From Octopus vulgaris (lineage: Eukaryota), in contig OX597817.1 of NCBI GenBank assembly GCA_951406725.2, positions 173,042,001-173,106,000 of the forward strand: a stretch of DNA of 64,000 bases, read 5' to 3'. Within the stretch, counting starts at the first letter, position 1; each line of letters begins with the position of its first letter. A program made the translations under genes and the position numbers. The notes below the pieces were generated by a model that was not told the origin of the DNA, did no database searches, and saw nothing but the letters and a program-made list of their open reading frames with translations. Positions 3,241 to 62,264 of this stretch are shown in pieces.

Positions 3241-3923
3241 TAAATTAAAGGTAAAAAGAAACAGGTAAAAAGGTAAAAACTGTAGACGTGCCAGGGGAAT
3301 GAACAATATTAACAATTTGAGAATAACTATGAAAAAAATAATATCAGATCAAGAAAGAGGAAAGAACTAATCATTATGATGCCTGCAAGGCAATTAGAAG
3401 AGACTTTATAGCGATGCCAAAAAAAAAAAAAAGAAAAACATATTGTGAAACCTAATTAGCTGAGTATAGATAGAAAATGCATGAAATAATAAACATTGCA
3501 GAGTATATAAAAGGAAAATAAATAAATAAGCAATTGCATTGAGATGGAAAAACCAAAAAGAAAATAATGTCAAGTTTTGCCACCATTGAGAGTACAAAAA
3601 ATTTGGAAGTAAACTGTAGGGGAGATAATTCAGGATTGGAGGGGAAATATGAGAGAATTAAGTTAAAGCATCTCTGAAATTTTTCCCTAGCGAATGGCAT
3701 ACTCTTTTATACTCTTTTACTTGTTACAGTCATTTGACTGTGGCCATGCTGGAGCACCGCCTTTAGTCGAGCAAATCGACCCCAGGACTTATTCTTTGGA
3801 AGCCTAGTACTTATTATATCAGTCTCTTTTGCCGAGCCGCTGAGTTACGGGGACATAAACGCACCAGCATCGGTAGTCAAGTGATGTTGGGGGACAAACA
3901 CAGACACACAAACATACACACAT

Positions 3924-3954
<31 letters not shown>

Positions 3955-4131
3955 TAAAAATATTAGGGAATAAATCCAAATTTACAGGGAAAAAAATCAG
4001 ATTTAGGATTAAATCCAATTTTATAGTAAAATATTATAAAATATTATTAGAGACAAAACCACTATTTTGCAAAACAAACAAGGAAAGACTTAATCAATAC
4101 ATAAAATTTTAATAAATAGTCAAAAAAACCG

Positions 4132-4174
4132 CCACTACAATTGTTTCTTGTCTTGATCGACAATCTTCAGGTGG
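4132..4174 (-). ncRNA. Minimal type I hammerhead ribozyme (mirror copy)
   Basis: Reverse complement reads CCAC-CTGAAGA-TTGTC-GATCAA-GACAA-GAAA-CAATTG-TA-GTGG. Confidence 0.8.
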
Positions 4175-4296
4175 ACTTCCAATCTAAAATATCAATATTT
4201 TAAAATATAAAAATAATAATTTTAAAATAATTAAAGTATGAATGAAAAAATATAAATATATAATCCATATATAACCTATATATAATCCATATATAA

Positions 4297-4650
4297 TATA
4301 AACGGCAGTTTGTCTGTGCTGTTTCTGTGTGTCTGTTTGCTTGTACCCTCACCCTGACCACGGCTATCAACCGATTCTGATGAAACTTGACACACACATA
4401 GCCCAATGTCATAATTCAAAACTAACGCAGCGAAAATTTTGAAAAGTTCCCCAATTCTGAAAAAAATCGATAAATTCGACATGGGGTCGAGAATCAGAAA
4501 CATAAACCGTCTAGGGGACGCAACTCCACCTTTTTTTACTCTCAAAAAAAATTTACCATCATTTTTTTCCATTTTTTGGCTATAACTCTCTAAAAATGCT
4601 TTATAGTTATTTCCCTTACAAACCTGAGCAACGCCGGGCGATACTGCTAG
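4297..4650 (+). mobile_element. Non-autonomous Helitron
   Basis: Ends CCTGAGCAACGCCGGG (hairpin)...CTAG followed by T; inserted between A and T with no TSD; absent from the mirror arm. Confidence 0.8.
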
Positions 4651-6593
4651 TCAATATATAAACAATATATAAACTAAAATAAACCTATCAACAATTAAAT
4701 ATAAAATATAAAATATAAAATATAAAACAAAACAAAAAAATAATAATAATATAATAATAAACTATATATACACCCATACACATATACCTAATTATATATA
4801 ACCATATCTAACTACATACACTAAATCACACACCTATATATATATCCCTATACATACACATAAAAACGTCTAGGCAACTATAAATAAATAAAATAGCTAA
4901 ATACTTCAACACAATACTTATTCATACTCCCACACACACACACATACAACCCACATTCACGCTCTAGAAAACGGACATCACTTAAAATTATGAACGGAGA
5001 AATGGAATAAATGGAATTAAAAATTATATTCACTTGGTAAAACGAACACTACTTAAAAATTATGAATGAAACAATGCAATAAAACAACAGACATCGCAAA
5101 TAGACACAAATTACTACGAATTCCTTAACAAACCTACCATGATAAACCAAAACCCATAAAAACATATAATGATAAAATCTCCCTTTACTAAACTCTGTAA
5201 CATACCTATATAGCAATCCCTAACCTAAACATTCACACACAAATACACACACGTAAACCACACACCCACGACATATACAAATACCCACACCACTTACACA
5301 TACCTATACATCAAAAATTATGAATGAAACAATGTAATAAAACAACCAACATCGAAAATAGACAAATTACCACGAATTCCCTAAAAAAACCATGATAAAC
5401 CAAAACTCTTAAAAACATATAACGATAAAATCTCCCTTTGCTAAACTCTATAACAAACCTATATAGCAATCCCCCTAACCTATGTTAAGTTGCTTGGTAA
5501 AGTAATTTTGTTTGGTGTATATGTTGAGGCTTATATGTACTTGTGGGTGTGTGTGAGTGGGGTGGGTGTTTGTATTTGTTATGGGTGTGTTGTTTACGTG
5601 TGTGTATTTGTGTGTGAATGTATAGGTTAAAGGGATTGCTATATAAGTATGTTATAGTGTTTAGTAAAGGGAGGTTTTATCATTTATGTTTTGTGAGTTT
5701 TAGCTTATCATGGTAGTTTTATAAAAGAATCCATTCATAATTTTTGTGTTTATTTGTCTGTGTGGGGTTCAGTGGGTTTTTGGAGTATATGTTGAGGTTT
5801 ATATGTATGTATAGGTATGTGTAAGTGGTGTGGGTATTTGTATATGTCGTGGGTGTGTGGTTTACGTGTGTGTATTTGTGTGTGAATGTTTAGGTTAGGG
5901 GGATTGCTATATAGGTATGTTACAGAGTTTAGTAAAGGGAGATTTTATCATTATATGTTTTTATGGGTTTTGGTTTATCATGGTAGGTTTGTTAAGGAAT
6001 TCGTAGTAATTTGTGTCTATTTGCGATGTCTGTTGTTTTATTGCATTGTTTCATTCATAATTTTTAAGTAGTGTTCGTTTTACCAAGTGAATATAATTTT
6101 TAATTCCATTTATTCCATTTCTCCGTTCATAATTTTAAGTGATGTCCGTTTTCTAGAGCGTGAATGTGGGTTGTATGTGTGTGTGTGTGGGAGTATGAAT
6201 AAGTATTGTGTTGAAGTATTTAGCTATTTTATTTATTTATAGTTGCCTAGACGTTTTTATGTGTATGTATAGGGATATATATATATAGGTGTGTGATTTA
6301 GTGTATGTAGTTAGATATGGTTATATATAATTAGGTATATGTGTATGGGTGTATATATAGTTTATTATTATATTATTATTATTTTTTTGTTTTGTTTTAT
6401 ATTTTATATTTTATATTTTATATTTAATTGTTGATAGGTTTATTTTAGTTTATATATTGTTTATATATTGATTATATATGGATTATATATAGGTTATATA
6501 TGGATTATATATTTATATTTTTTCATTCATACTTTAATTATTTTAAAATTATTATTTTTATATTTTAAAATATTGATATTTTAGATTGGAAGT

Positions 6594-6636
6594 CCACCTG
6601 AAGATTGTCGATCAAGACAAGAAACAATTGTAGTGG
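6594..6636 (+). ncRNA. Minimal type I hammerhead ribozyme
   Basis: Stem I CCAC/GTGG; core CTGAAGA; stem II TTGTC/GACAA; GAAA; palindromic stem III ACAATTGT; GUA cleavage triplet ending at 6632. Confidence 0.8.
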
Positions 6637-6724
6637 CGGATTTTTTGACTATTTATTAAAATTTTATGTATTGATTAAGTCTTTCCTTGTTTGTTTTGCA
6701 AAATAGTGGTTTTGTCTCTAATAA

Positions 6725-6784
<60 letters not shown>

Positions 6785-7538
6785 GATATATGATGGAATT
6801 CTTTCAGTTTGTGTCTACCAAATCCACTCACAAGGCTTTGGTCTGCCCGAGGCTATAGTAGAAGACACTTGCCCAAGGTGCCATGCAATGGAACTGAACC
6901 TGGAACCATGTGGTTGGTAAGCAAGCTACTTACCACACAGCCACTCCTACGCTACAACAAACTATCTGTTCATCATATTGATCTTTTGTTGGATGTTTTT
7001 ACTCCTGAAAATTGATGTAGTCTTATTTTCTTATAAACATTTCACTGATACACATTTGCAATATTACAATGATCCATTTTCTTTAGTTGATTACTTTTTA
7101 TACAACTAGATAACAGCCATGGAAAAAATCAAATATTCAATTAGCAACATTTTTGCTTTAGGTTTACTATTTAACATCACGACCATTTTGTCTTTGTTTT
7201 TGTTTAGTTTTTTCTTCCTTGCAACTTAATTACGATGAATTTTTTTTGACAAATTTTGGAGATTTGCAAGAGTAACTTTTTTTTACAGCTAGATGCCTTT
7301 CTAAATGTTAAGCAATCAATAATGCTAAACTAATTTTGATCCAGAGCAGCCAATAAAGGAACCGTTGCATGAAATGCAAGTATGACTATGCAGTTAAATG
7401 CCACCCAACCATGTTTTGGGTTTTGGGTTCAGTCCCACTGCAGAGCACCTTAAGTAAGTATCTTCCCATAAAGCCCCAGGCCAATCAATGCCTTATGAGT
7501 GAATTTGATATTTGGTACATGGAAACTGAAAGAAGTGC

Positions 7539-17648: not shown

Positions 17649-18140
17649 ATTATTAAGCTAGTGTTTGGAATATAAATCAGCCTGAAATTTCAATGGAAGC
17701 ATCAAAATTGAATTACTTTAAAACAGGGAATTTGTATTGTAGAAATAAGGAAAGTTTTAGGTGGGTTGTTATCAAAAGAGTTAACCTTTTTCATACCAAC
17801 TCACCTGAAATATTGATGTAACAAAAAAAAATGTTTAATAATGTTATCGACAGATTTGTTGATAAAACATTATTAAATTTTCATTTTAATTAGATTTACA
17901 CAGCTTTATTTCCAGAGTTGTTGAATTATTGTTTATGCTCACTTCACAAACATGTCAGAATGGCAACATATTACAACAGATCTTAAGTTATATAAGCTAC
18001 ATTTTGACTGTTAACTAGAAGATCAAGACAAGCCATAGACACCGCATAAAATTTGTACCATGGGTTTAAGTCACTTGCATGACTGGTTGAAGAAAAACAA
18101 ACATTCAATGCCTTTTGTAGTACCAATGATTTAGAGGGAG

Positions 18141-18307
18141 CAAAAAGATTGCCTTACAAGTAAGGCAAAAAGATTGTCTTACAAGTGAGGCAAAAAGATT
18201 ATCTTACAAGTAAGGCAAAAAGATTGTCTTACAAGCAAGGAAAAAAGATTGCCTTACAAGCAAGGAAAAAAGATTGCCTTACAAGCAAGGAAAAAAGATT
18301 GCCTTAC
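18141..18307 (+). repeat. 25-bp minisatellite, ~6.7 copies (MAAAAAGATTRYCTTACAAGYRAGG)
   Basis: Units start at 18141, 18166, 18191, 18216, 18241, 18266 and 18291. Confidence 0.95.
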
Positions 18308-22280: not shown

Positions 22281-22963
22281 ATCACATAAAAACACCCATG
22301 TAGTGTCACATAAAAGTGCCCATGCAGTGTCACATAAAAGTACCTATGCAGTGCCACATAAAAGTGCCCATGTAGTGTCACATAAAAACACCCATGTAGT
22401 GTCACATAAAAGTGTCCATGCAGTGTCACATAAAAGTGCCCATGTAGTGCCACATAAAAGTGCCCATGTAGTGCCACATAAAAGTGCCCATGTAGTGCCA
22501 CATAAAGTGCCCATGTAGTGCCACATAAAAGTGCCCATGTAGTGCCACATAAAAGTGCCCATGTAGTGCCACATAAAAGTGCCCATGTAGTGCCACATAA
22601 AAGTGCCCATGTAGTGTCACATAAAGTGCCCATGCAGTGTCACATAAAAGTACCTATGCAGTGACATGTAAAAGCACTCATGCGACACCATGTAAAAGCA
22701 CCCATGCAGCGCCGCATAAAAACACTTATGCAGTGGCACATAAAAGTACCCATGCAGTGCCACATAAAAGCACTTGTGTAGTGCCACATAAAAGCACCCA
22801 GCACACTCTGTAAAGTGGTCGGCATTAGGAAGGGCATCCAGCTGTAGAGACCCTGCCAAAACAAACTGTTGGTGCAGCTCCCCAGCTTGCCAGCTCTGGT
22901 CAAACCGTTCAACCCATGCCAGCATGGACAACAGATGTTAAATGATGATGATGATGATGATGA
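22281..22963 (+). repeat. 24-bp minisatellite (~21 copies, CATGTAGTGCCACATAAAAGTGCC) fused to a SINE family D 3' end
   Basis: The array grades into GCACCCAGCACACTCTGTAAAGTGGTCGGCATTAGGAAGGGCATCCAG...(GAT)n. Confidence 0.9.
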
Positions 22964-27624: not shown

Positions 27625-28149
27625 AAGAAGAAGAAGAAGAAGAAGAAGAAGAAGAAGAAGACGTTATCTACTGAATTACATACTCTCAACTAAAGCTCAC
27701 ATCTACAGAGAAAGCTATTCAAGTACAATGGATGTACTAAGATTGTGTCGTCTTATCCACAATGCATATATTTGAATAAATTTCAGGTAGGTTTTACAAA
27801 ACTGCTTATATCTTGAATTTTCCATAGTATTTTGATTTTTGTTTCATTTTGTTGTTTGTCTTCTTTTCTCCTTCTAAAAGTAAATGTATATGAAAATAAA
27901 GTCTAAACTGATGTGAAATCCACCGGGGTTCCTCAAAATAAATACCGATGCCTGTTGTGCATCTTTGACAAAATTGGAAATAATAATATCTATTTATAAG
28001 AACACTAAAATAATCTGTCAAAAATGACAAGGTAAAAGTAGAAACGTAGTCCTATGCAAGTATGAATATCACAGATATAACAACAATGTACAAAAGAAAG
28101 AACTGCATGCACTACGTGTTCAGATATACCATTAATACAGTAGTCATCC

Positions 28150-28620
28150 CTATCTTGCTCAGAACATTGACCTCCTGGAATCTGTCCAGAGACGTGCAAC
28201 CAAACGCATACCCTCCATCAGACACCTACCATATTCTGAGCGCCTTGTTTCCCTGGGCATGGATTCACTGAAGCTCCGGCGTCTGGCGACGGACTTGGTA
28301 AGCACCCACAAGGTTATCAACCACCTCACCAACAACAACACTGAACACCTTTTTGATCTCCATGTGTCTAACACACGTGGACATGCCTACAAAGTCAGAA
28401 AACAGCACAGCTCCCATGACTTTCGGAAACATTTTTTCACGCTCAGAGTTGCTGAAGCGTGGAATAAACTGCCTGCGTCAGTTGTTGACTGCCATGACAC
28501 TACATCCTTTAAGGCCCTCATGCTTCCCGAAATCCGTCGAAACTACACCTGATTATATATACACTTTAGATGAGTTGTAGTACACCTGAGCACTGTACAC
28601 AATTATTATTATTATTATTA
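28150..28620 (+). pseudogene. CR1-clade LINE ORF2 3' fragment, 5'-truncated, with (ATT)n tail
   Basis: IDLLESVQRRATKRIP..LPYSERL..LGMDSLKLRRL..DL..HK..TRGHAYK..RKHFFTLRVAEAWNKLP; frame open to the stop at 28552. Confidence 0.9.
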
Positions 28621-34202: not shown

Positions 34203-34605
34203 GGCGCAGGAGTGGCTTTGTGGTAAGTAGCTTGCTTACCAACCACATGGTTCCGGGTTCAGTCCCACTACATGGCACTTTGGGCAAGTGTCTTCTACTA
34301 TAGCCTCGGGCCGCCCAAAGCCTTGTGAGTGAATTTTGGTAGACAGAAACTGAAAGAAGCCTGTCATATATATGTATATATGTGTGTGTGTGTTTGTGTG
34401 TCCATGTTGCCCCCCTCCCAACATCGCTTAAAAACCAATGCTGGTGTGTTTACGTCCCCATAACTTAGTGGTTCAGCAAAAGAGACTGATAGAATAAGTA
34501 CTAGGCTTATGAAGAATAAGTCCTGGGGTCGATTTGCTCGACTAAAGGCAGTGCTCCAGCATGGCCGCAGTCAAATGACTGAAACAAGTAAAAGAGTAAA
34601 AGAGA
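34203..34605 (+). mobile_element. SINE family B, full length
   Basis: Canonical head, body and tail. Confidence 0.85.
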
Positions 34606-34648
34606 GCTAATTAAATGACTGAGATCCATTTCTCTCTGAAATTAAAGC

Positions 34649-41389: not shown

Positions 41390-42620
41390 TCTAAATTTAG
41401 CTTTTGCTTTGTACAAGTTGACTCCAGGTTTCACCCAGAGACCTCAAGTGACAAGTTAGAAGTTCAAGTTGGTTTTATTATTATTATATAGGACAGTGGT
41501 TTGGCAAAATCTCCAGAGCATTGTTCTAGAGAATGTCTGTCAAAACATAAGTAAATTAGAAGTTTGTTTTAAAAGTAATTTGATAAGATGATAGTCCCCT
41601 GTTAGATGGCAGTAAAAGATGTTTGTTGTTATTTGAAAAGTATTTTGATATTGTTTACGGGTTAAAGTATTTTAACAGAGTTTACGGATTACAGAGACAA
41701 TATTTTACGTATGATATGGGCAGTTCCCATGAACACTATTTTTTTAATTTCTTCCATTTGGGGATTTCCTGGTATCTGAGTTAGGTAGCAATCAGCCCCT
41801 TTTGCTATCATTCTTAGGGCACCTATGACAACAGGTATTGTTTTAGTCATGAGGTTTCACATTTTTCCAATTTCTATTCCAAGATCTTTATACTCATTCA
41901 GTTTTTGGTAGGTCTTGACAGATACATTTATGCTGATTGGGTCAGTCATGTCAATGAGGAGGCATGATTTTTGTCTGAAGTCCTTCAATATAATGTCTGG
42001 CTTATTCTCATATATCTTTCAGTCAGTTTGAAAACTGAAGTTCCAAAGGAGTGAGATGTGGTCATTATCAAGCACTGGCAGTGGTTTTTATCATGGGGCA
42101 GGTCCAAGTCTTTGCAAATTACCCAGTGAATATACTGTGCTGCTCTGTCATGCCTGTTGAGATACTCTGTAGGCCCAAGAAGACTGCACTTGGAGACAAC
42201 ATGATCGATGGTTTCATTTTGTTGTTTACATACTTGACATTTTGGGTAACTGCCATTCTTTAAGTCTTTAAGATGTTGGCCTGGTATCTTCTTGCAGGTA
42301 GGCATTGATCTTGGGCTGCTATGATAAACCCTTCTGTCTTTGATTTTAAGCCAGAAGACATTAACCACTGATGGGTAAGGGCTGTGTCAACATCAGTATT
42401 ATTAGCTCTTTCTGGGTATTGGCTCTTGAGAGGTTTTTCTTGCCATTTATCACTAAGAATATCTAAGGCAGCAGTTTTAGTACGGGTCTTCATATGCTTA
42501 GCTTTTTCTGTGTTTGCTTCCATTACGCCTAATTCTGGGATTTGTTGTATTTGAAATTCACTTAGATATTTCTTTGCCCAATTTGTTGCTGAGTATGATG
42601 TTTTCTTATTTTCATGTTGT
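41390..42620 (-). pseudogene. Dong/R4-clade non-LTR retrotransposon 3' fragment (zinc knuckle plus restriction-like endonuclease)
   Basis: WQEKPL..QY, QWL..SGLKSKTEGFIIAAQDQ, KCQVCKQQNETIDHVVSKC, YLNRHD, NKPDIIL..LLIDM, K..EYKDL..EI, IPVVIGAL; 3' end runs into (AAT)n. Confidence 0.9.
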
Positions 42621-44194
42621 CTTATTATTATTATCATCATCAACAAACTGGCAGAGTTGTTAAAGCACTAGAAAATGCTTTGCAGTATTTGTTCTGGCTC
42701 TTTACATTCTGGGTTCAAATCCAGCCAAGATTAGTCCTTTCAGGGTCAATAAAAAAAGTACCACTCAAGTACTGGATTGATGGTCTTGTGTCTGAATTAG
42801 TAATAATTATTTATTTGTATTCGATTAAGCCAGTGAATTAGCATAATGGATGGCATTAGATAGAATACCTCAAAGTATTTGTTCCGACTCACTGTACTTG
42901 ACAGGTACTTTATTGATTCCAACAGGATGATAGGCAAAGTTGACCTCAACAGGATTTGAACTCTGAATACAAAAGAGTCAGAAAAAAGTGCCGGGAAGCA
43001 TTTTGTCCAACATCCTAATGATTCTGCCAACCCTACACCTTAACAATAATAATAATCCTTTCTATAAGAGGCACCAGGTCTGAAATTTGGGGGAGGGGAT
43101 AGGTTGATTACATCAACCCCAGGGCTTCAATGGTACTTAATTTACTCGTTTCTATTCAAGGCACAAGGCCTGAAATTTTTGGGGAGGAGGTGCCAGTTGA
43201 TTAGATCAACCCTAGTATGCAACTGGTACTTAACTTATCGACCCCGAAAGGACGAAAGGCAAAGTTGACCTTGGCGGAATTTGAACTCAGAAAAGACAGA
43301 TGAAATACTGCTAAGCATTTTGTCCAGCATCCTAACAATTCCGCCAGCTAACCCTTTCTTTCTAACAGAGCAAGCTGACGGAATCGTTTGCATACCAAGT
43401 AAAATACTTAGAAGCATTTCATCTATCTTTGTGTTCTGAGTTCTGAGTTCAAATGCTGCTGAGGTTGACTTTGCCTTTTATGTTTTGGGGGGTCAATAAA
43501 ATAAATACCAGTTGAGTACTGGGGTTCACACAATTGACTTTTTCTCTCCCCAAACCTTTCTGGTTTTGTGTCATAATTTGAAATCAATGATTCTTTCTGA
43601 TTTTCACACAAGATCATCAATTTGAAGAAAGAGAGAAACATAATTACATCAACTCAGCACTTGACTGGCATTTTATTTTTTCTCGATCCCAGAAGGATAA
43701 AAGGCAGAGTTAATCTCAGATGGATCTGAATTCAAACGGTAAAAGAGTCGGAGAAAAACGCCATTGAGCATTTTGCCTGATATGCTACCGAGATAATTTG
43801 AAGTGAGAACCGTTCAAAGACATTAAAGACTACAATGTAAGTCTGTGTATAGACACCTGTCATCTTCAATATATTCTTTGTGCATATATTAAATTATGCT
43901 ACCAAAAATCTGAATCATTGGTGGTTGGTTTTGACATGCAGGAACCCAAGACCAGAACAAAAAAAAAAAAACAATCCCACCCTCTGCAATCAAAATCCTT
44001 GGTGTAGGAGGAGAGCGAAAAGATATATGTTAAAAGATGAGTCATTTTGTTATTGATCCGTTTGTGAAGATAGTAGTTAAATATTGTGTATTGTTTCTTT
44101 TCTTGTTGTTGTTGCTGCTGTTGTTTTTGTTTTTTTTATTACAATCAGGCTACAGAAAATAGAAATACTGAACTGGCAATCACTATCATATCCA

Positions 44195-60122: not shown

Positions 60123-61675
60123 TGCATATATATATATCTGTTATCTTTTCCTTGTTTCAGTCATTTGACTGCGGCCATGCTGGGGCACCACCTTGAAGGA
60201 TTTTTTTAGTTGAACAAATTGACAAGAGGAGTCATTTTTTTAAAGTCTAGTACATATTCTATTTTTCTCTTTTACTGAACCACTAACTTACACAGATGTA
60301 AACAAACCAATACCGGTTGTCAAGCAGTGGTGGGGGACAAACACAGAAACACACACATAGATGTATATATATGACAGGCTTCTTTCAGTTTCCGTCTACC
60401 AAATCCACTCACAAGGCTTTGGTTAGTCACACTTGCACCTAAAAATACGCAATGGATGCATATGCATATGGCAAGAGTTCTTGCTCCTTCTTCAGTACCA
60501 TATCCAAATACGATGGGCTTCTTTCAGTTTCTCCCCATCAAATCCACCCACAAGGTTTTGGTTAGTCCAAGGCTATCGTAGAAGATACTTGCCTAAGATG
60601 CCACACAGTGAGACTGAACTCAGAACCTTGTACTTTGGAAGCAAGCTCACTGTGTATATATGCATAAACGTCATGTGACATCCAAACCATGTCATGTTCA
60701 GGTTCTTCCATAATCCTGGGCAACTGCTTGAGTTGCTGGAACATTCAACTGATCCTGTACCCCACCACACATAAACATGCTCACATTCTCTCTCAATAAT
60801 CAATACATTTATTATTTTTGTTTCTAATTTAGGCACAAAGCCAGTAATTTTAGGAGAGGTGCACTTCTCCAGTATTGTATTTTCCTGACCCTGAAGGTAT
60901 GACAGGCAAGGCTGGTCTCAACAGAATTTGACTTTGCCTTTCATTCCTTTGGGGTCGTTAAAATGAGCACCAGCTAAGCCCTCTTCTCCTAAAATTGCCA
61001 GCCTTATTCCAAAGTTTGAAACGATGAAGATGGTGAGCTATCAGAACATTAGCATGCTGGATTAAATGCTTAGTGGTATATTTTCCAATTTAACTCGGTA
61101 AGTATAAATTCTGCTGAGGTCAGCTTTACCTTTCATCCCCTTAGGGTTGATGAAATAAAAGCACTACTTTAGCGCTGGGGTTAATGCAACTGATTAGCCT
61201 CTCCCCCAGAATTTTAGGCCCTATGCCTAAAATTTTGATATTGCTCTTTGTGACTGGTTTAGTTTTGTTAATATCAGATCACAACCTGTGCTCTAGCATG
61301 AGAAACATTCTTGTCTCTACTCCTATTAAGATCCTTCCAGGTTGTTCCAAATCCCCCTTCCTTTGTGTCAAAGACTTTCCGGTAAATTCTGTCTGATCTA
61401 AGTCAAGAGTTTTCTGCACTACACCCACTCCTTATCAAAATCTAATTTTACCCTCAAATTCCTCGTCACAGTTCCCGAAACACCAATAATAATCGGAAGG
61501 ACTAATGAACCTAGCCAATTTCCTCTCAGTTATAAACACGTTTATTACGAATAAAAGAAATTATGGCATCATCATCATCATTAATATTATTATTATTTCA
61601 ATACGTTTATTACATTCAAAAGCCGCCGTGGTCAGCGTTGTCTTTCATCATTCTGGGTCGATAAAATAAAGTACC

Positions 61676-62264
61676 TATTTCTTTATTACCCACAAGGGGC
61701 TAAACACAGAGCGGACAAACAAGGACAGACATAGGTATTAAGTCGATTATATCGACCCCAATGCGTAACTGGTACTTAATTTATCGACCCCGAAAGGATG
61801 AAAGGCAAAGTCGACCTCGGCGGAATTTGAACTCACAACGTAACGCAGACGAAATACCTATTTCTTTATTACCCACAAGGGGCTAAACACAGAGCGGACA
61901 AACAAGGACAGACATAGGTATTAAGTCGATTATATCGACCCCAATGCGTAACTGGTACTTAATTTATCGACCCCGAAAGGATGAAAGGCAAAGTCGACCT
62001 CGGCGGAATTTGAACTCACAACGTAACGCAGACGAAATACCTATTTCTTTATTACCCACAAGGGGCTAAACACAGAGCGGACAAACAAGGACAGACATAG
62101 GTATTAAGTCGATAACATCGACCCCAGTGCGTAACTGGTACTTAATTTATCGACCCCGAAAGGATGAAAGGCAAAGTCAACCTCGGCGGAATTTGAACTC
62201 ACAACGTAACGACAAGCGAAATACCGTTAAGCATTTCGCCCGGCGTGCTAACGTTTCTGCCAGC
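61676..62264 (-). mobile_element. SINE A long-tail trimer (183-bp period, single head) inside an older opposite-strand SINE A; TACC TSD
   Basis: Units start at 61676, 61859 and 62042; TACC at 61672-61675 and 62265-62268. Confidence 0.9.

What the first reader, a model, noticed from the sequence alone, without database searches (positions are those of the whole stretch)
3950..6728. 2.7-kb inverted duplication carrying two near-intact hammerhead ribozymes, with no protein-coding capacity
Seen: two ~900-bp arms are near-perfect reverse complements, each ending in CCAC-CUGAAGA-UUGUC/GACAA-GAAA-CAAUUG-UA-GUGG, and the whole sits in the (TA)n of a SINE. Established: Penelope-like elements carry minimal type I hammerheads with palindromic stem III that cleave as dimers, and often form inverted pseudo-LTRs. 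Inference: this is a non-autonomous PLE or retrozyme-like element. A transcript from either strand would form a long dsRNA hairpin (a potential ADAR substrate) with a self-cleavage site at its 3' end. The first pair of stem II is U-A rather than the usual purine-pyrimidine pair, which may reduce activity.
Basis: partly seen in the sequence, partly recalled or inferred. Interest (0 to 1): 0.75.

Follow-up and report, generated by a model that had tools for sequence, protein, structure and literature searches.

The report
Penelope retrocopies reveal intron-retention rule
This is a back-to-back double copy of the end of a young Penelope-type jumping gene, made mostly of a stretch that is likely the element's own unspliced intron; its hundreds of sister copies, some with and some without that stretch, likely record why these elements keep introns and how both ends of a DNA break copy one RNA.

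Summary
The inverted repeat and both hammerheads are real. It is not a retrozyme or a non-autonomous family: it is one 5'-truncated, head-to-head insertion of a young autonomous Hydra-clade Penelope-like element (6.0-6.8-kb unit, 839-aa RT/GIY-YIG ORF, 1,540 exact end matches) in the (TA)n of a SINE, with a later Helitron-like insert in one arm. The locus is ordinary; the family is informative. The arms lie almost wholly inside a 1,829-nt GT-AG intron that 423 other copies lack precisely. Intron-less copies stop at an initiator-like A, 32 of 44 with an extra G (cap signature); all 100 listed intron-containing copies spanning that point carry the templated C. So the intron is spliced next to the cap and mostly kept in the read-through 3' repeat. 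In head-to-head pairs both arms share splice state (45 of 45 classifiable) and only one carries the 80-nt tail (50 of 53), fitting twin priming on one sense RNA and contradicting a published antisense-template model. 5' ends pile up just 3' of the ribozyme cut (22 versus 2), hinting at cleavage in vivo. The U-A pair is normal for Hydra hammerheads. No RNA evidence was obtained.

The parts
3699..3923 (-). 3' half of the host SINE-like repeat (target; not part of the insertion)
   Evidence: many window copies, 80-90%; contiguous with the other half in the copy at 34204-34606; name 'octopus SINE' is recalled, from no call
3924..3953 (.). (TA)n target, left part
   Evidence: 108 of 113 family 3' ends abut (TA)4+
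3953..4030 (-). ~80-nt tail, present on the left arm only; ends at the distal initiation site (+179 to +183 from the ribozyme cut); it is the start of the ORF's 5' UTR in full units
4132..4174 (-). Left type I hammerhead, family-type sequence; predicted cut after 4136
4184..4185 (-). 3' splice site AG of the retained intron, left arm
4186..5482 (-). Left arm: 3' part of the element's 1,829-nt intron (with the insert and the deletion below)
   Evidence: maps to L243 7040-7211 and onward, donor at L243 6605, acceptor end 8432
4297..4650 (+). 354-bp Helitron-like non-autonomous insert (between A and T, ends CTAG, short GC-rich palindrome near the end; TC start not seen at the alignment-defined boundary); later insertion into one arm
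   Evidence: 1,948 candidates, 40 scored at 96-100%; 12 of 12 copies end CTAG followed by T
5311..5312 (-). Junction of a ~435-nt deletion inside the left arm, unique in the assembly
   Evidence: (1 exact match, this locus)
5481..5483 (.). Inversion junction; the two 5'-truncated arms overlap by about 2 nt (TA)
5481..6584 (+). Right arm: 3' 1.1 kb of the retained intron, ending in the acceptor AG at 6583-6584
6594..6636 (+). Right type I hammerhead; predicted cut after 6632; a private T>A at 6640 favours a shifted stem I
6637..6729 (+). End of the right arm at the proximal initiation site (+97 to +105, boundary blurred by TA); no tail
6730..6776 (.). (TA)n target, right part
6777..6953 (-). 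5' half of the host SINE-like repeat (target)

Best explanation
The locus is a 5'-truncated, head-to-head insertion of a young autonomous Hydra-clade Penelope-like element, whose two arms were likely primed from the two ends of one cut in (TA)n and likely copied from one unspliced, uncleaved read-through RNA. SHOWN: family, unit structure (HHR-5'UTR-ORF-3'UTR-start site-23-nt exon-1,829-nt GT-AG segment-HHR), two fixed 3' ends 80 nt apart, one per arm, and three classes of copies (segment precisely absent, segment present, starting just 3' of the cut). INFERRED: an RT/endonuclease dimer binds the RNA just downstream of the hammerhead, cuts both strands and extends each 3' end from one of two sites; both cDNAs run towards the RNA's 5' end over the same stretch and are joined through short microhomology, giving an inverted repeat with a tail on one side. 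If it binds the capped, spliced 5' end of the mRNA the product is a 150-250-bp intron-less copy that stops at the cap; if it binds the downstream repeat of a read-through transcript, where the same donor is no longer cap-proximal and is mostly unused, the product keeps the intron and, when long enough, the promoter and ORF. This copy is of the second kind and stopped inside the intron, so it is predicted to be dead; a Helitron-like element inserted later.
For: Autonomous partner: tandem HHRs flank an intact ORF in L237, L238, L239, L243; P0001 has DKT, YRDD, CxCx5C, CxxC/CxH and no CCHH. Intron: GTAAGT...TTTTAG, 1,829 nt; 45 intron-less versus 28 intron-containing arms of 81 on contig C1 (8 unclassified), 4 of them joined at a second GT 4 nt downstream; 423 exact junctions genome-wide, control 0; exon-1 variants seen in short copies also occur in long units. 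Cap: all 45 C1 intron-less arms stop within 23 nt of the donor; of 44 that reach the A of TCACTTC, the base before is G 32, T 6, C 6; of 103 intron-containing matches all 100 listed have C; Fisher p 7.6e-29; an extra G marks capped templates in L1 insertions (PMC11702581). Twin priming: tail on one arm in 22 of 23 simple C1 pairs and 50 of 53 pairs; both strands are cut and extended from two internal sites in vitro for a Poseidon PLE (PMC11167929); the tail-less arm reaches further 5' in 15 of 44 pairs, which a fold-back of one cDNA cannot give. One template: 27 spliced/spliced, 1 alt-donor/alt-donor, 17 unspliced/unspliced, 0 mixed, 8 unclassifiable of 53; 1-nt subfamily marker concordant in 46 of 47; the window's arms differ by 1 substitution while the nearest other copies differ by 4.
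Against: No RNA reads: splicing, capping, cleavage and transcription are all read from DNA fossils. 6 of 44 intron-less copies extend upstream of the start site (three checked: about 25, 120 and 285 nt), so splicing of upstream-started RNA is rare, not absent. For most of the 21 G copies inspected the G could also come from the partner arm's microhomology; only about 3 are free of that doubt, and copies with A at that place were not counted. One pair (L177) is discordant at the subfamily marker; one pair joins a spliced arm to an arm starting at +9. The 53 pairs are not a random sample. Concordance could also come from two RNAs in the same state. No target-site duplication can be read in (TA)n. 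The junctions of this very copy were not bridged by any listed contig of four other runs, so an assembly error at this locus is not excluded by independent data, though the same layout recurs at dozens of loci.
Confidence: 0.8

Rival explanations
1. Same family and twin priming, but the two arms are copied from two RNA molecules held together (for example through the palindromic stem III of a double hammerhead or by the protein dimer) that happen to share processing state.
For: Stem III palindrome pairs between two molecules in the dimer fold (-8.4 kcal/mol) and is kept by G-U or double changes in older subfamilies (ACAATTGT, ACGATTGT, ACGATCGT); L177 differs at the subfamily marker between arms; two RTs on one RNA 80 nt apart need strand displacement, untested.
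Against: 0 mixed pairs of 45 although both classes are common (45:28 on C1; permutation p<1e-5 for unspliced pairs); the rare +4 isoform is on both arms of L177; pairs starting 3' of the cut, which lack the palindrome, are just as concordant (6 of 7).
Confidence: 0.2
2. Fold-back: one cDNA (or an antisense RNA, as proposed in PMC3846280) self-primes and copies itself; the intron is kept because the template is antisense.
For: Palindromic or microhomology junctions are common; one identical hairpin-like junction recurs in 8 of 30 loci; tail arm is the longer one in 20 of 44 pairs.
Against: 28 pairs have the intron precisely removed on both arms and many carry the extra G, which an antisense template cannot give; in 15 of 44 pairs the shorter arm carries the tail that the longer arm lacks.
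Confidence: 0.07
3. One reading: a non-autonomous, retrozyme-like element whose transcript forms an edited hairpin and cleaves itself.
For: No ORF in the locus; hairpin of about 960-1,000 long-range pairs if transcribed; inverted Penelope copies do yield siRNAs in transgenic flies (PMC3681739, passages).
Against: Each part maps colinearly on autonomous units; both junctions are private to this locus (for the deletion); no tandem monomers; start site and exon 1 absent; hammerheads sequestered in the duplex.
Confidence: 0.04
4. The intron-less short copies are not spliced mRNA ends of the autonomous element but a separate SINE-like deletion derivative that spreads by itself.
For: They are the commonest class (423 exact junctions) and keep the initiator; an internal promoter is known for Penelope (PMC2377424, passages).
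Against: Boundaries are exactly GT...AG without microhomology, two donors share one acceptor, and the junction occurs in both subfamilies and with several exon-1 variants found in long units. Secondary amplification of some short copies is not excluded.
Confidence: 0.08

Closest known systems
Hydra clade of C-terminal EN+ Penelope-like elements (Craig et al. 2021, PMC8557442; includes Hydra-1_Obim, 2,507 bp)
   Same: Single RT + GIY-YIG ORF with DKT, YRDD, CxCx5C, CxxC/CxH, no CCHH; type I hammerhead with a U before stem II; (TA)n targets; partial tandems; inverted 5'-truncated copy; tail on one end.
   Different: Unit 6.0-6.8 kb against generally <3 kb; 1.8-kb 5'-UTR intron (none mentioned for Hydra in the section and tables read); tail ~80 nt against 30-40; KWK for RWK; Asn-rich insert of about 100 aa; hammerhead and protein differ from Hydra-1_Obim, so a different family.
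Penelope of Drosophila virilis (PMC2377424; PMC4209133)
   Same: Start site, short first exon and intron inside the terminal repeat; acceptor just 5' of hammerhead stem I; intron kept in long genomic copies.
   Different: 75-bp intron 46 bp from the start there; here 1,829 nt, 23 nt from the start, and hundreds of intron-less genomic copies with a cap signature, which the passages read do not report.
Poseidon PAc in vitro (Frangieh et al. 2024, PMC11167929)
   Same: Both strands cut and extended; two internal initiation sites that define the tail; uncleaved RNA is the main template.
   Different: There no difference in start site between strands and no reads ending at the cut; here the two ends of one insertion use different sites in 50 of 53 pairs, and a class of copies starts just 3' of the cut. 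ORF starts 239 nt after the cut, not inside the ribozyme.
L1 twin priming (as described in PMC11702581)
   Different: L1 arms copy adjacent, non-overlapping parts; here both arms copy the same stretch, so the product is a true inverted repeat.
Metazoan non-LTR retrozymes (bioRxiv 10.64898/2026.07.22.740005)
   Same: Type I hammerhead, no ORF in the copy, link to PLE terminal repeats.
   Different: Defined as tandem monomers with one hammerhead each; this locus has none.

Membership tests
EN+ Penelope-like element, Hydra clade | Single ORF with RT and C-terminal GIY-YIG | tested here: met
   P0001, 839 aa, YRDD and VVY...YIG; Pfam itself gives no hit for P0001 and GIY-YIG for only 1 of 22 homologs; not in this copy, which is truncated
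EN+ Penelope-like element, Hydra clade | DKG modified to DKT | tested here: met
   QSDKTRNLY
EN+ Penelope-like element, Hydra clade | N-terminal RWK motif | tested here: inconclusive
   RIKWKAF: K in place of R at the aligned column; most of the 21 homologs have RW
EN+ Penelope-like element, Hydra clade | CxCx5C linker, CxxC and CxH in EN, no CCHH | tested here: met
   CTCRDKSNC, CYLC, CRH; no CCHH in the EN core
EN+ Penelope-like element, Hydra clade | Canonical type I hammerhead in the terminal repeat | tested here: met
   core, stem I, 4 pairs of stem II and stem III invariant in 10 of 10, loop II variable; covariation not significant (335 of 500 shuffles)
EN+ Penelope-like element, Hydra clade | Insertion into (TA)n | tested here: met
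   108 of 113 ends
EN+ Penelope-like element, Hydra clade | Placement inside the clade in an RT tree with reference sequences | not tested
   only motif comparison by eye with Fig. S7 text
EN+ Penelope-like element, Hydra clade | Short unit (<3 kb; descriptive, not defining) | tested here: not met
   HHR-to-HHR 5,996, 6,297, 6,310, 6,340, 6,829 bp
Non-LTR retrozyme | Two or more tandem monomers, each with a hammerhead | tested here: not met
   two hammerheads on opposite strands, no tandem unit
Non-LTR retrozyme | Family encodes no protein | tested here: not met
Non-LTR retrozyme | Circular RNA | not testable with these tools
   no run on record as RNA
Spliceosomal intron | GT-AG boundaries removed precisely in RNA-derived copies | tested here: met
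Spliceosomal intron | Spliced RNA reads | not testable with these tools
Active hammerhead ribozyme | Self-cleavage at the predicted site | tested here: inconclusive
   5' ends 22 at 0..+38 versus 2 inside the ribozyme (p 3.6e-5), 6 of 7 such pairs concordant; but starts exactly at +1 (6) are no more frequent than at +2 (6 matches, 4 true truncations) and the active fold is not the minimum-energy fold
Non-autonomous Helitron (insert 4297-4650) | CTRR 3' end, insertion before T, subterminal palindrome, 5' TC | tested here: inconclusive
   CTAG then T in 12 of 12; TC-rich start in 11 other copies, not at this copy's boundary; no autonomous partner sought

The most novel reading that the evidence does not exclude
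This family is a natural record of the whole Penelope cycle: the same intron is spliced when it lies next to the cap and skipped by the spliceosome when it lies in the read-through 3' repeat, which explains why Penelope-like elements keep introns; one RT dimer primes both ends of a break at two sites on a single sense RNA, which explains inverted pseudo-LTRs and one-sided tails; and a third class of copies comes from RNA already cut by the hammerhead, the first sign that a PLE hammerhead cleaves in vivo.
Probability: 0.45. Interest if true: 0.8.

Novelty: new variant of a known kind. Interest (0 to 1): 0.64.

Why it matters
Papers read here call three things open: the significance of intron retention, the origin of tandem/inverted structures and tails, and the role of the hammerhead (PMC8557442, Discussion passages). 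An antisense, self-priming template was proposed to explain the first two (PMC3846280, Discussion). This young family gives countable genomic evidence for a sense, capped template, position-dependent splicing and paired use of two initiation sites, and it supplies intact ORFs, a mapped start site, splice sites and initiation sites for a direct test. It also shows that most 'solo' hammerhead copies of such a family are processed 5' mRNA ends. The single locus in the window has no sign of function.

Tried and rejected
Rfam scan: no hammerhead model hit. Pfam and PDB sequence searches: no informative hit for P0001 or its profile. Single-strand folds: z-scores -1.2 to +0.4, active fold not favoured, uninformative for a minimal hammerhead; my hand-built extension of stem I scored worse and was dropped. 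Covariation on 10 hammerheads not above shuffles; conservation among 177 young arms is biased by the search seeds. Enrichment of starts exactly at the cut: not seen against the +2 control. Sequencing runs: no RNA holder listed; contigs of four runs cover both sides of, but no listed piece bridges, the two private junctions (proves nothing). No host exon recognised among 45 ORFs of 110 aa or more in the window (by eye), so intron versus intergenic position is unknown. Idea that a 14-nt palindrome upstream of the hammerhead causes the junction hot spot: dropped, since that stretch is absent from the short copies. Earlier scan notes by place, by first word set and by sequence gave nothing relevant. 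Six literature searches listed no report of intron-less or capped PLE genomic copies; Arkhipova 2003 and 2006, Evgen'ev and Arkhipova 2005 and Pyatkov 2004 were not read and may bear on this, as may the unread supplements of PMC11167929 and the closed supplements of the bioRxiv preprint.

Full report
Observation. The window lies on contig C4 of a 2.8-Gb assembly, probably an octopod (inference: nearest named homologs are from Argonauta and Octopus; the SINE type is recalled). Two arms face outwards: 3953-5482 on the minus strand and 5481-6729 on the plus strand. Their shared part aligns over 927 columns with 1 substitution and 8 gap columns. Each has a full type I hammerhead core (6594-6636; 4174-4132). 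The left arm also has an 80-nt tail, a 354-bp insert and a ~435-nt deletion. The whole interrupts the (TA)n of a SINE-like repeat.

Family. A 186-nt query gave 1,085 candidates, the 40 scored all 99-100% identical. Exact counts: 492 for the 43-nt ribozyme, 1,540 for a 24-mer at the short end, 673 of which read on into the tail; reversed controls 0. Long copies carry an 839-aa ORF (P0001); of the 60 matches listed, 7 cover residues 1-839 without stops at 97-100%. In L237, L238, L239 and L243 two hammerheads flank an intact ORF, 6.0-6.3 kb apart. P0001 shows the Hydra-clade motifs of PMC8557442 (section 11 and supplement passages), and the ribozyme parses like the Hydra rows of File S2, most of which have a U before stem II. 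It differs from Hydra-1_Obim. In 10 ribozymes from young and older subfamilies the core, stem I, four pairs of stem II and stem III never vary, loop II does, and the questioned U-A is UA in 5, AU in 1 and unpaired in 4. So the locus is a truncated copy of an autonomous element. Inverted 5'-truncated copies, one-sided tails and opposite-strand hammerhead pairs are already described (PMC8557442 passages; PMC4209133 parts 1-2).

The intron. I fetched all 71 clusters formed by the first 100 matches on contig C1 (plus four loci held). Many short copies lack, exactly, a 1,829-nt segment that begins GTAAGT and ends TTTTAG 47 nt before the cut. Of 81 arms with the 5' half of the ribozyme, 41 use this donor, 4 a second GT four bases on, 28 keep the segment, 8 are too short to class. 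The junction 20-mer has 423 exact matches. The window's arms lie inside this segment: donor at L243 6605, arms from 7040 and 7319, acceptor 8432; neither start site nor ORF start is in the window.

The cap. All 45 intron-less C1 arms stop within 23 nt of the donor, at or after the A of TCACTTC. Genome-wide, 44 intron-less matches reach that A with a non-A base before it: G 32, T 6, genomic C 6. Of 103 intron-containing matches, the 100 listed all have C. Fisher p = 7.6e-29. An extra G is the known mark of a copied cap in L1 (PMC11702581 passages). Limits: the A class was not counted; in most of the 21 G loci inspected the partner arm could supply the G; three C-type loci extend about 25-285 nt upstream. 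Reading: the intron is spliced when cap-proximal and mostly kept in the downstream repeat of read-through RNA, the only template that can yield a full copy. That the cap-binding complex promotes first-intron removal is established (PMC7462061 passages); its role here is inference. Penelope of D. virilis has the same order of start, short exon, intron and ribozyme (PMC2377424 passages), where retention was put down to selection.

How the inversion forms. 3' ends fall at two sites, +99 to +116 (61 of 113) and +179 to +183 (51 of 113), one other; 108 of 113 abut (TA)4+ (arms under 88-89% identity or under 35 nt were dropped, and two pairs split over loci were not counted). In head-to-head pairs one arm has the tail and the other not: 22 of 23 by coordinates, 33 of 35 in the C1 sample, 50 of 53 in all loci held (not a random sample). 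Splice state agrees in 45 of 45 classifiable pairs, 8 unclassifiable; a 1-nt subfamily marker agrees in 46 of 47. The tail arm reaches further 5' in 20, the short arm in 15, equal in 9 of 44 short pairs chosen from C1. A fold-back cannot put a tail on the copy that the original lacks, and an antisense template (PMC3846280 Discussion) cannot be spliced or capped. In vitro a Poseidon protein cuts and extends both strands from two internal sites and is predicted to be a dimer (PMC11167929 parts 1-2). I therefore favour twin priming on one sense RNA (about 0.65), with two like-state RNAs as the main rival. Earlier AI notes on other families reach the twin-priming and run-off ideas too; they are not independent support and their summaries mention no intron or cap.

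The ribozyme. Most copies hold it whole, so uncut RNA is the main template. But 22 arms begin at 0 to +38 against 2 inside the ribozyme (p 3.6e-5), and 6 of 7 pairs with such an arm have it on both sides (permutation p 2e-5), as expected for a cut template. Against: exact starts at +1 are not enriched over +2, most starts lie at +7 to +26 where RT could stall at the stem base, and the active dimer fold is 6.6 kcal/mol (left) and 12.4 kcal/mol (right, with its T>A at 6640) above the minimum. I put cleavage in vivo at about 0.55.

This copy. If read through it would fold into about 960-1,000 long-range pairs with all 43 ribozyme bases paired to the other arm. Nothing shows that it is transcribed, edited or useful. 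The deletion junction is unique; the insert belongs to a separate family of Helitron-like repeats.

Papers seen: PMC8557442 (abstract, passages, section 11, supplement tables and passages); PMC11167929 and PMC4209133 (parts 1-2 of 4); PMC3846280 (passages, Discussion); bioRxiv 10.64898/2026.07.22.740005 (part 1 of 5, passages); PMC2377424, PMC13282606, PMC11702581, PMC7462061, PMC3681739 (passages). Searches listed no report of intron-less, capped PLE copies; key subscription papers were not available.

Verdict. The locus is a dead copy of a known kind of element. The family is a new, long, intron-bearing Hydra variant whose copies make three open questions of Penelope biology countable and testable. 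Interest 0.64.

Noticed in passing
window 4297-4650; L032-L042: Young Helitron-like non-autonomous family of ~350 bp, 1,948 candidates, 96-100% identical; autonomous partner not sought.
   Followed up: partly
P0001 residues ~490-610: Asn-rich insert of about 100 aa between RT thumb and linker, like the N-rich inserts reported for rotifer Penelope ORFs (PMC3846280).
   Followed up: no
L122, L132, L136, L138-L139, L240: A subfamily carries tandem duplications of a ~1.75-kb block holding the start site, exon 1 and most of the intron (two or three promoters per unit).
   Followed up: no
L229:1588 and 6674; L241:887, 6490, 7725: Older or diverged units have GA instead of GT at the main donor while the +4 GT is kept; whether their short copies use the +4 donor was not checked.
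   Followed up: no
L194, L200-L202, L204, L209, L210, L213: An identical inversion junction recurs in 8 of 30 loci; two cap-ended cDNAs could anneal there as a symmetric 6-bp duplex with two G-A mismatches, which needs the cap-derived base.
   Followed up: partly
L191/L192: Both arms of one pair begin exactly at the predicted ribozyme cut, separated by a 6-nt palindromic filler.
   Followed up: partly
177 arms held; L235: Stem III palindrome changes A>G in 56 of 177 arms (G-U in the dimer) and by a double change in an older subfamily that restores a perfect palindrome.
   Followed up: partly
L227, L228, L229, L234, L235, L224-L226, L231-L233: Several older subfamilies of the same element (80-94% protein identity) with different loop II sequences.
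   Followed up: partly
The family (or the insert) is held by runs under four organism labels (A-D), so it is not private to this assembly.
   Followed up: no
window 61672-62225, 22283-22794, 18140-18307: Tandem arrays of 183 bp x3 (98% identical, SINE-like), 24 bp x21 and 25 bp x7.
   Followed up: no
window 28136-28552 and 41985-42667: Fragments that look like ends of LINE ORFs (by eye, from recalled motifs).
   Followed up: no
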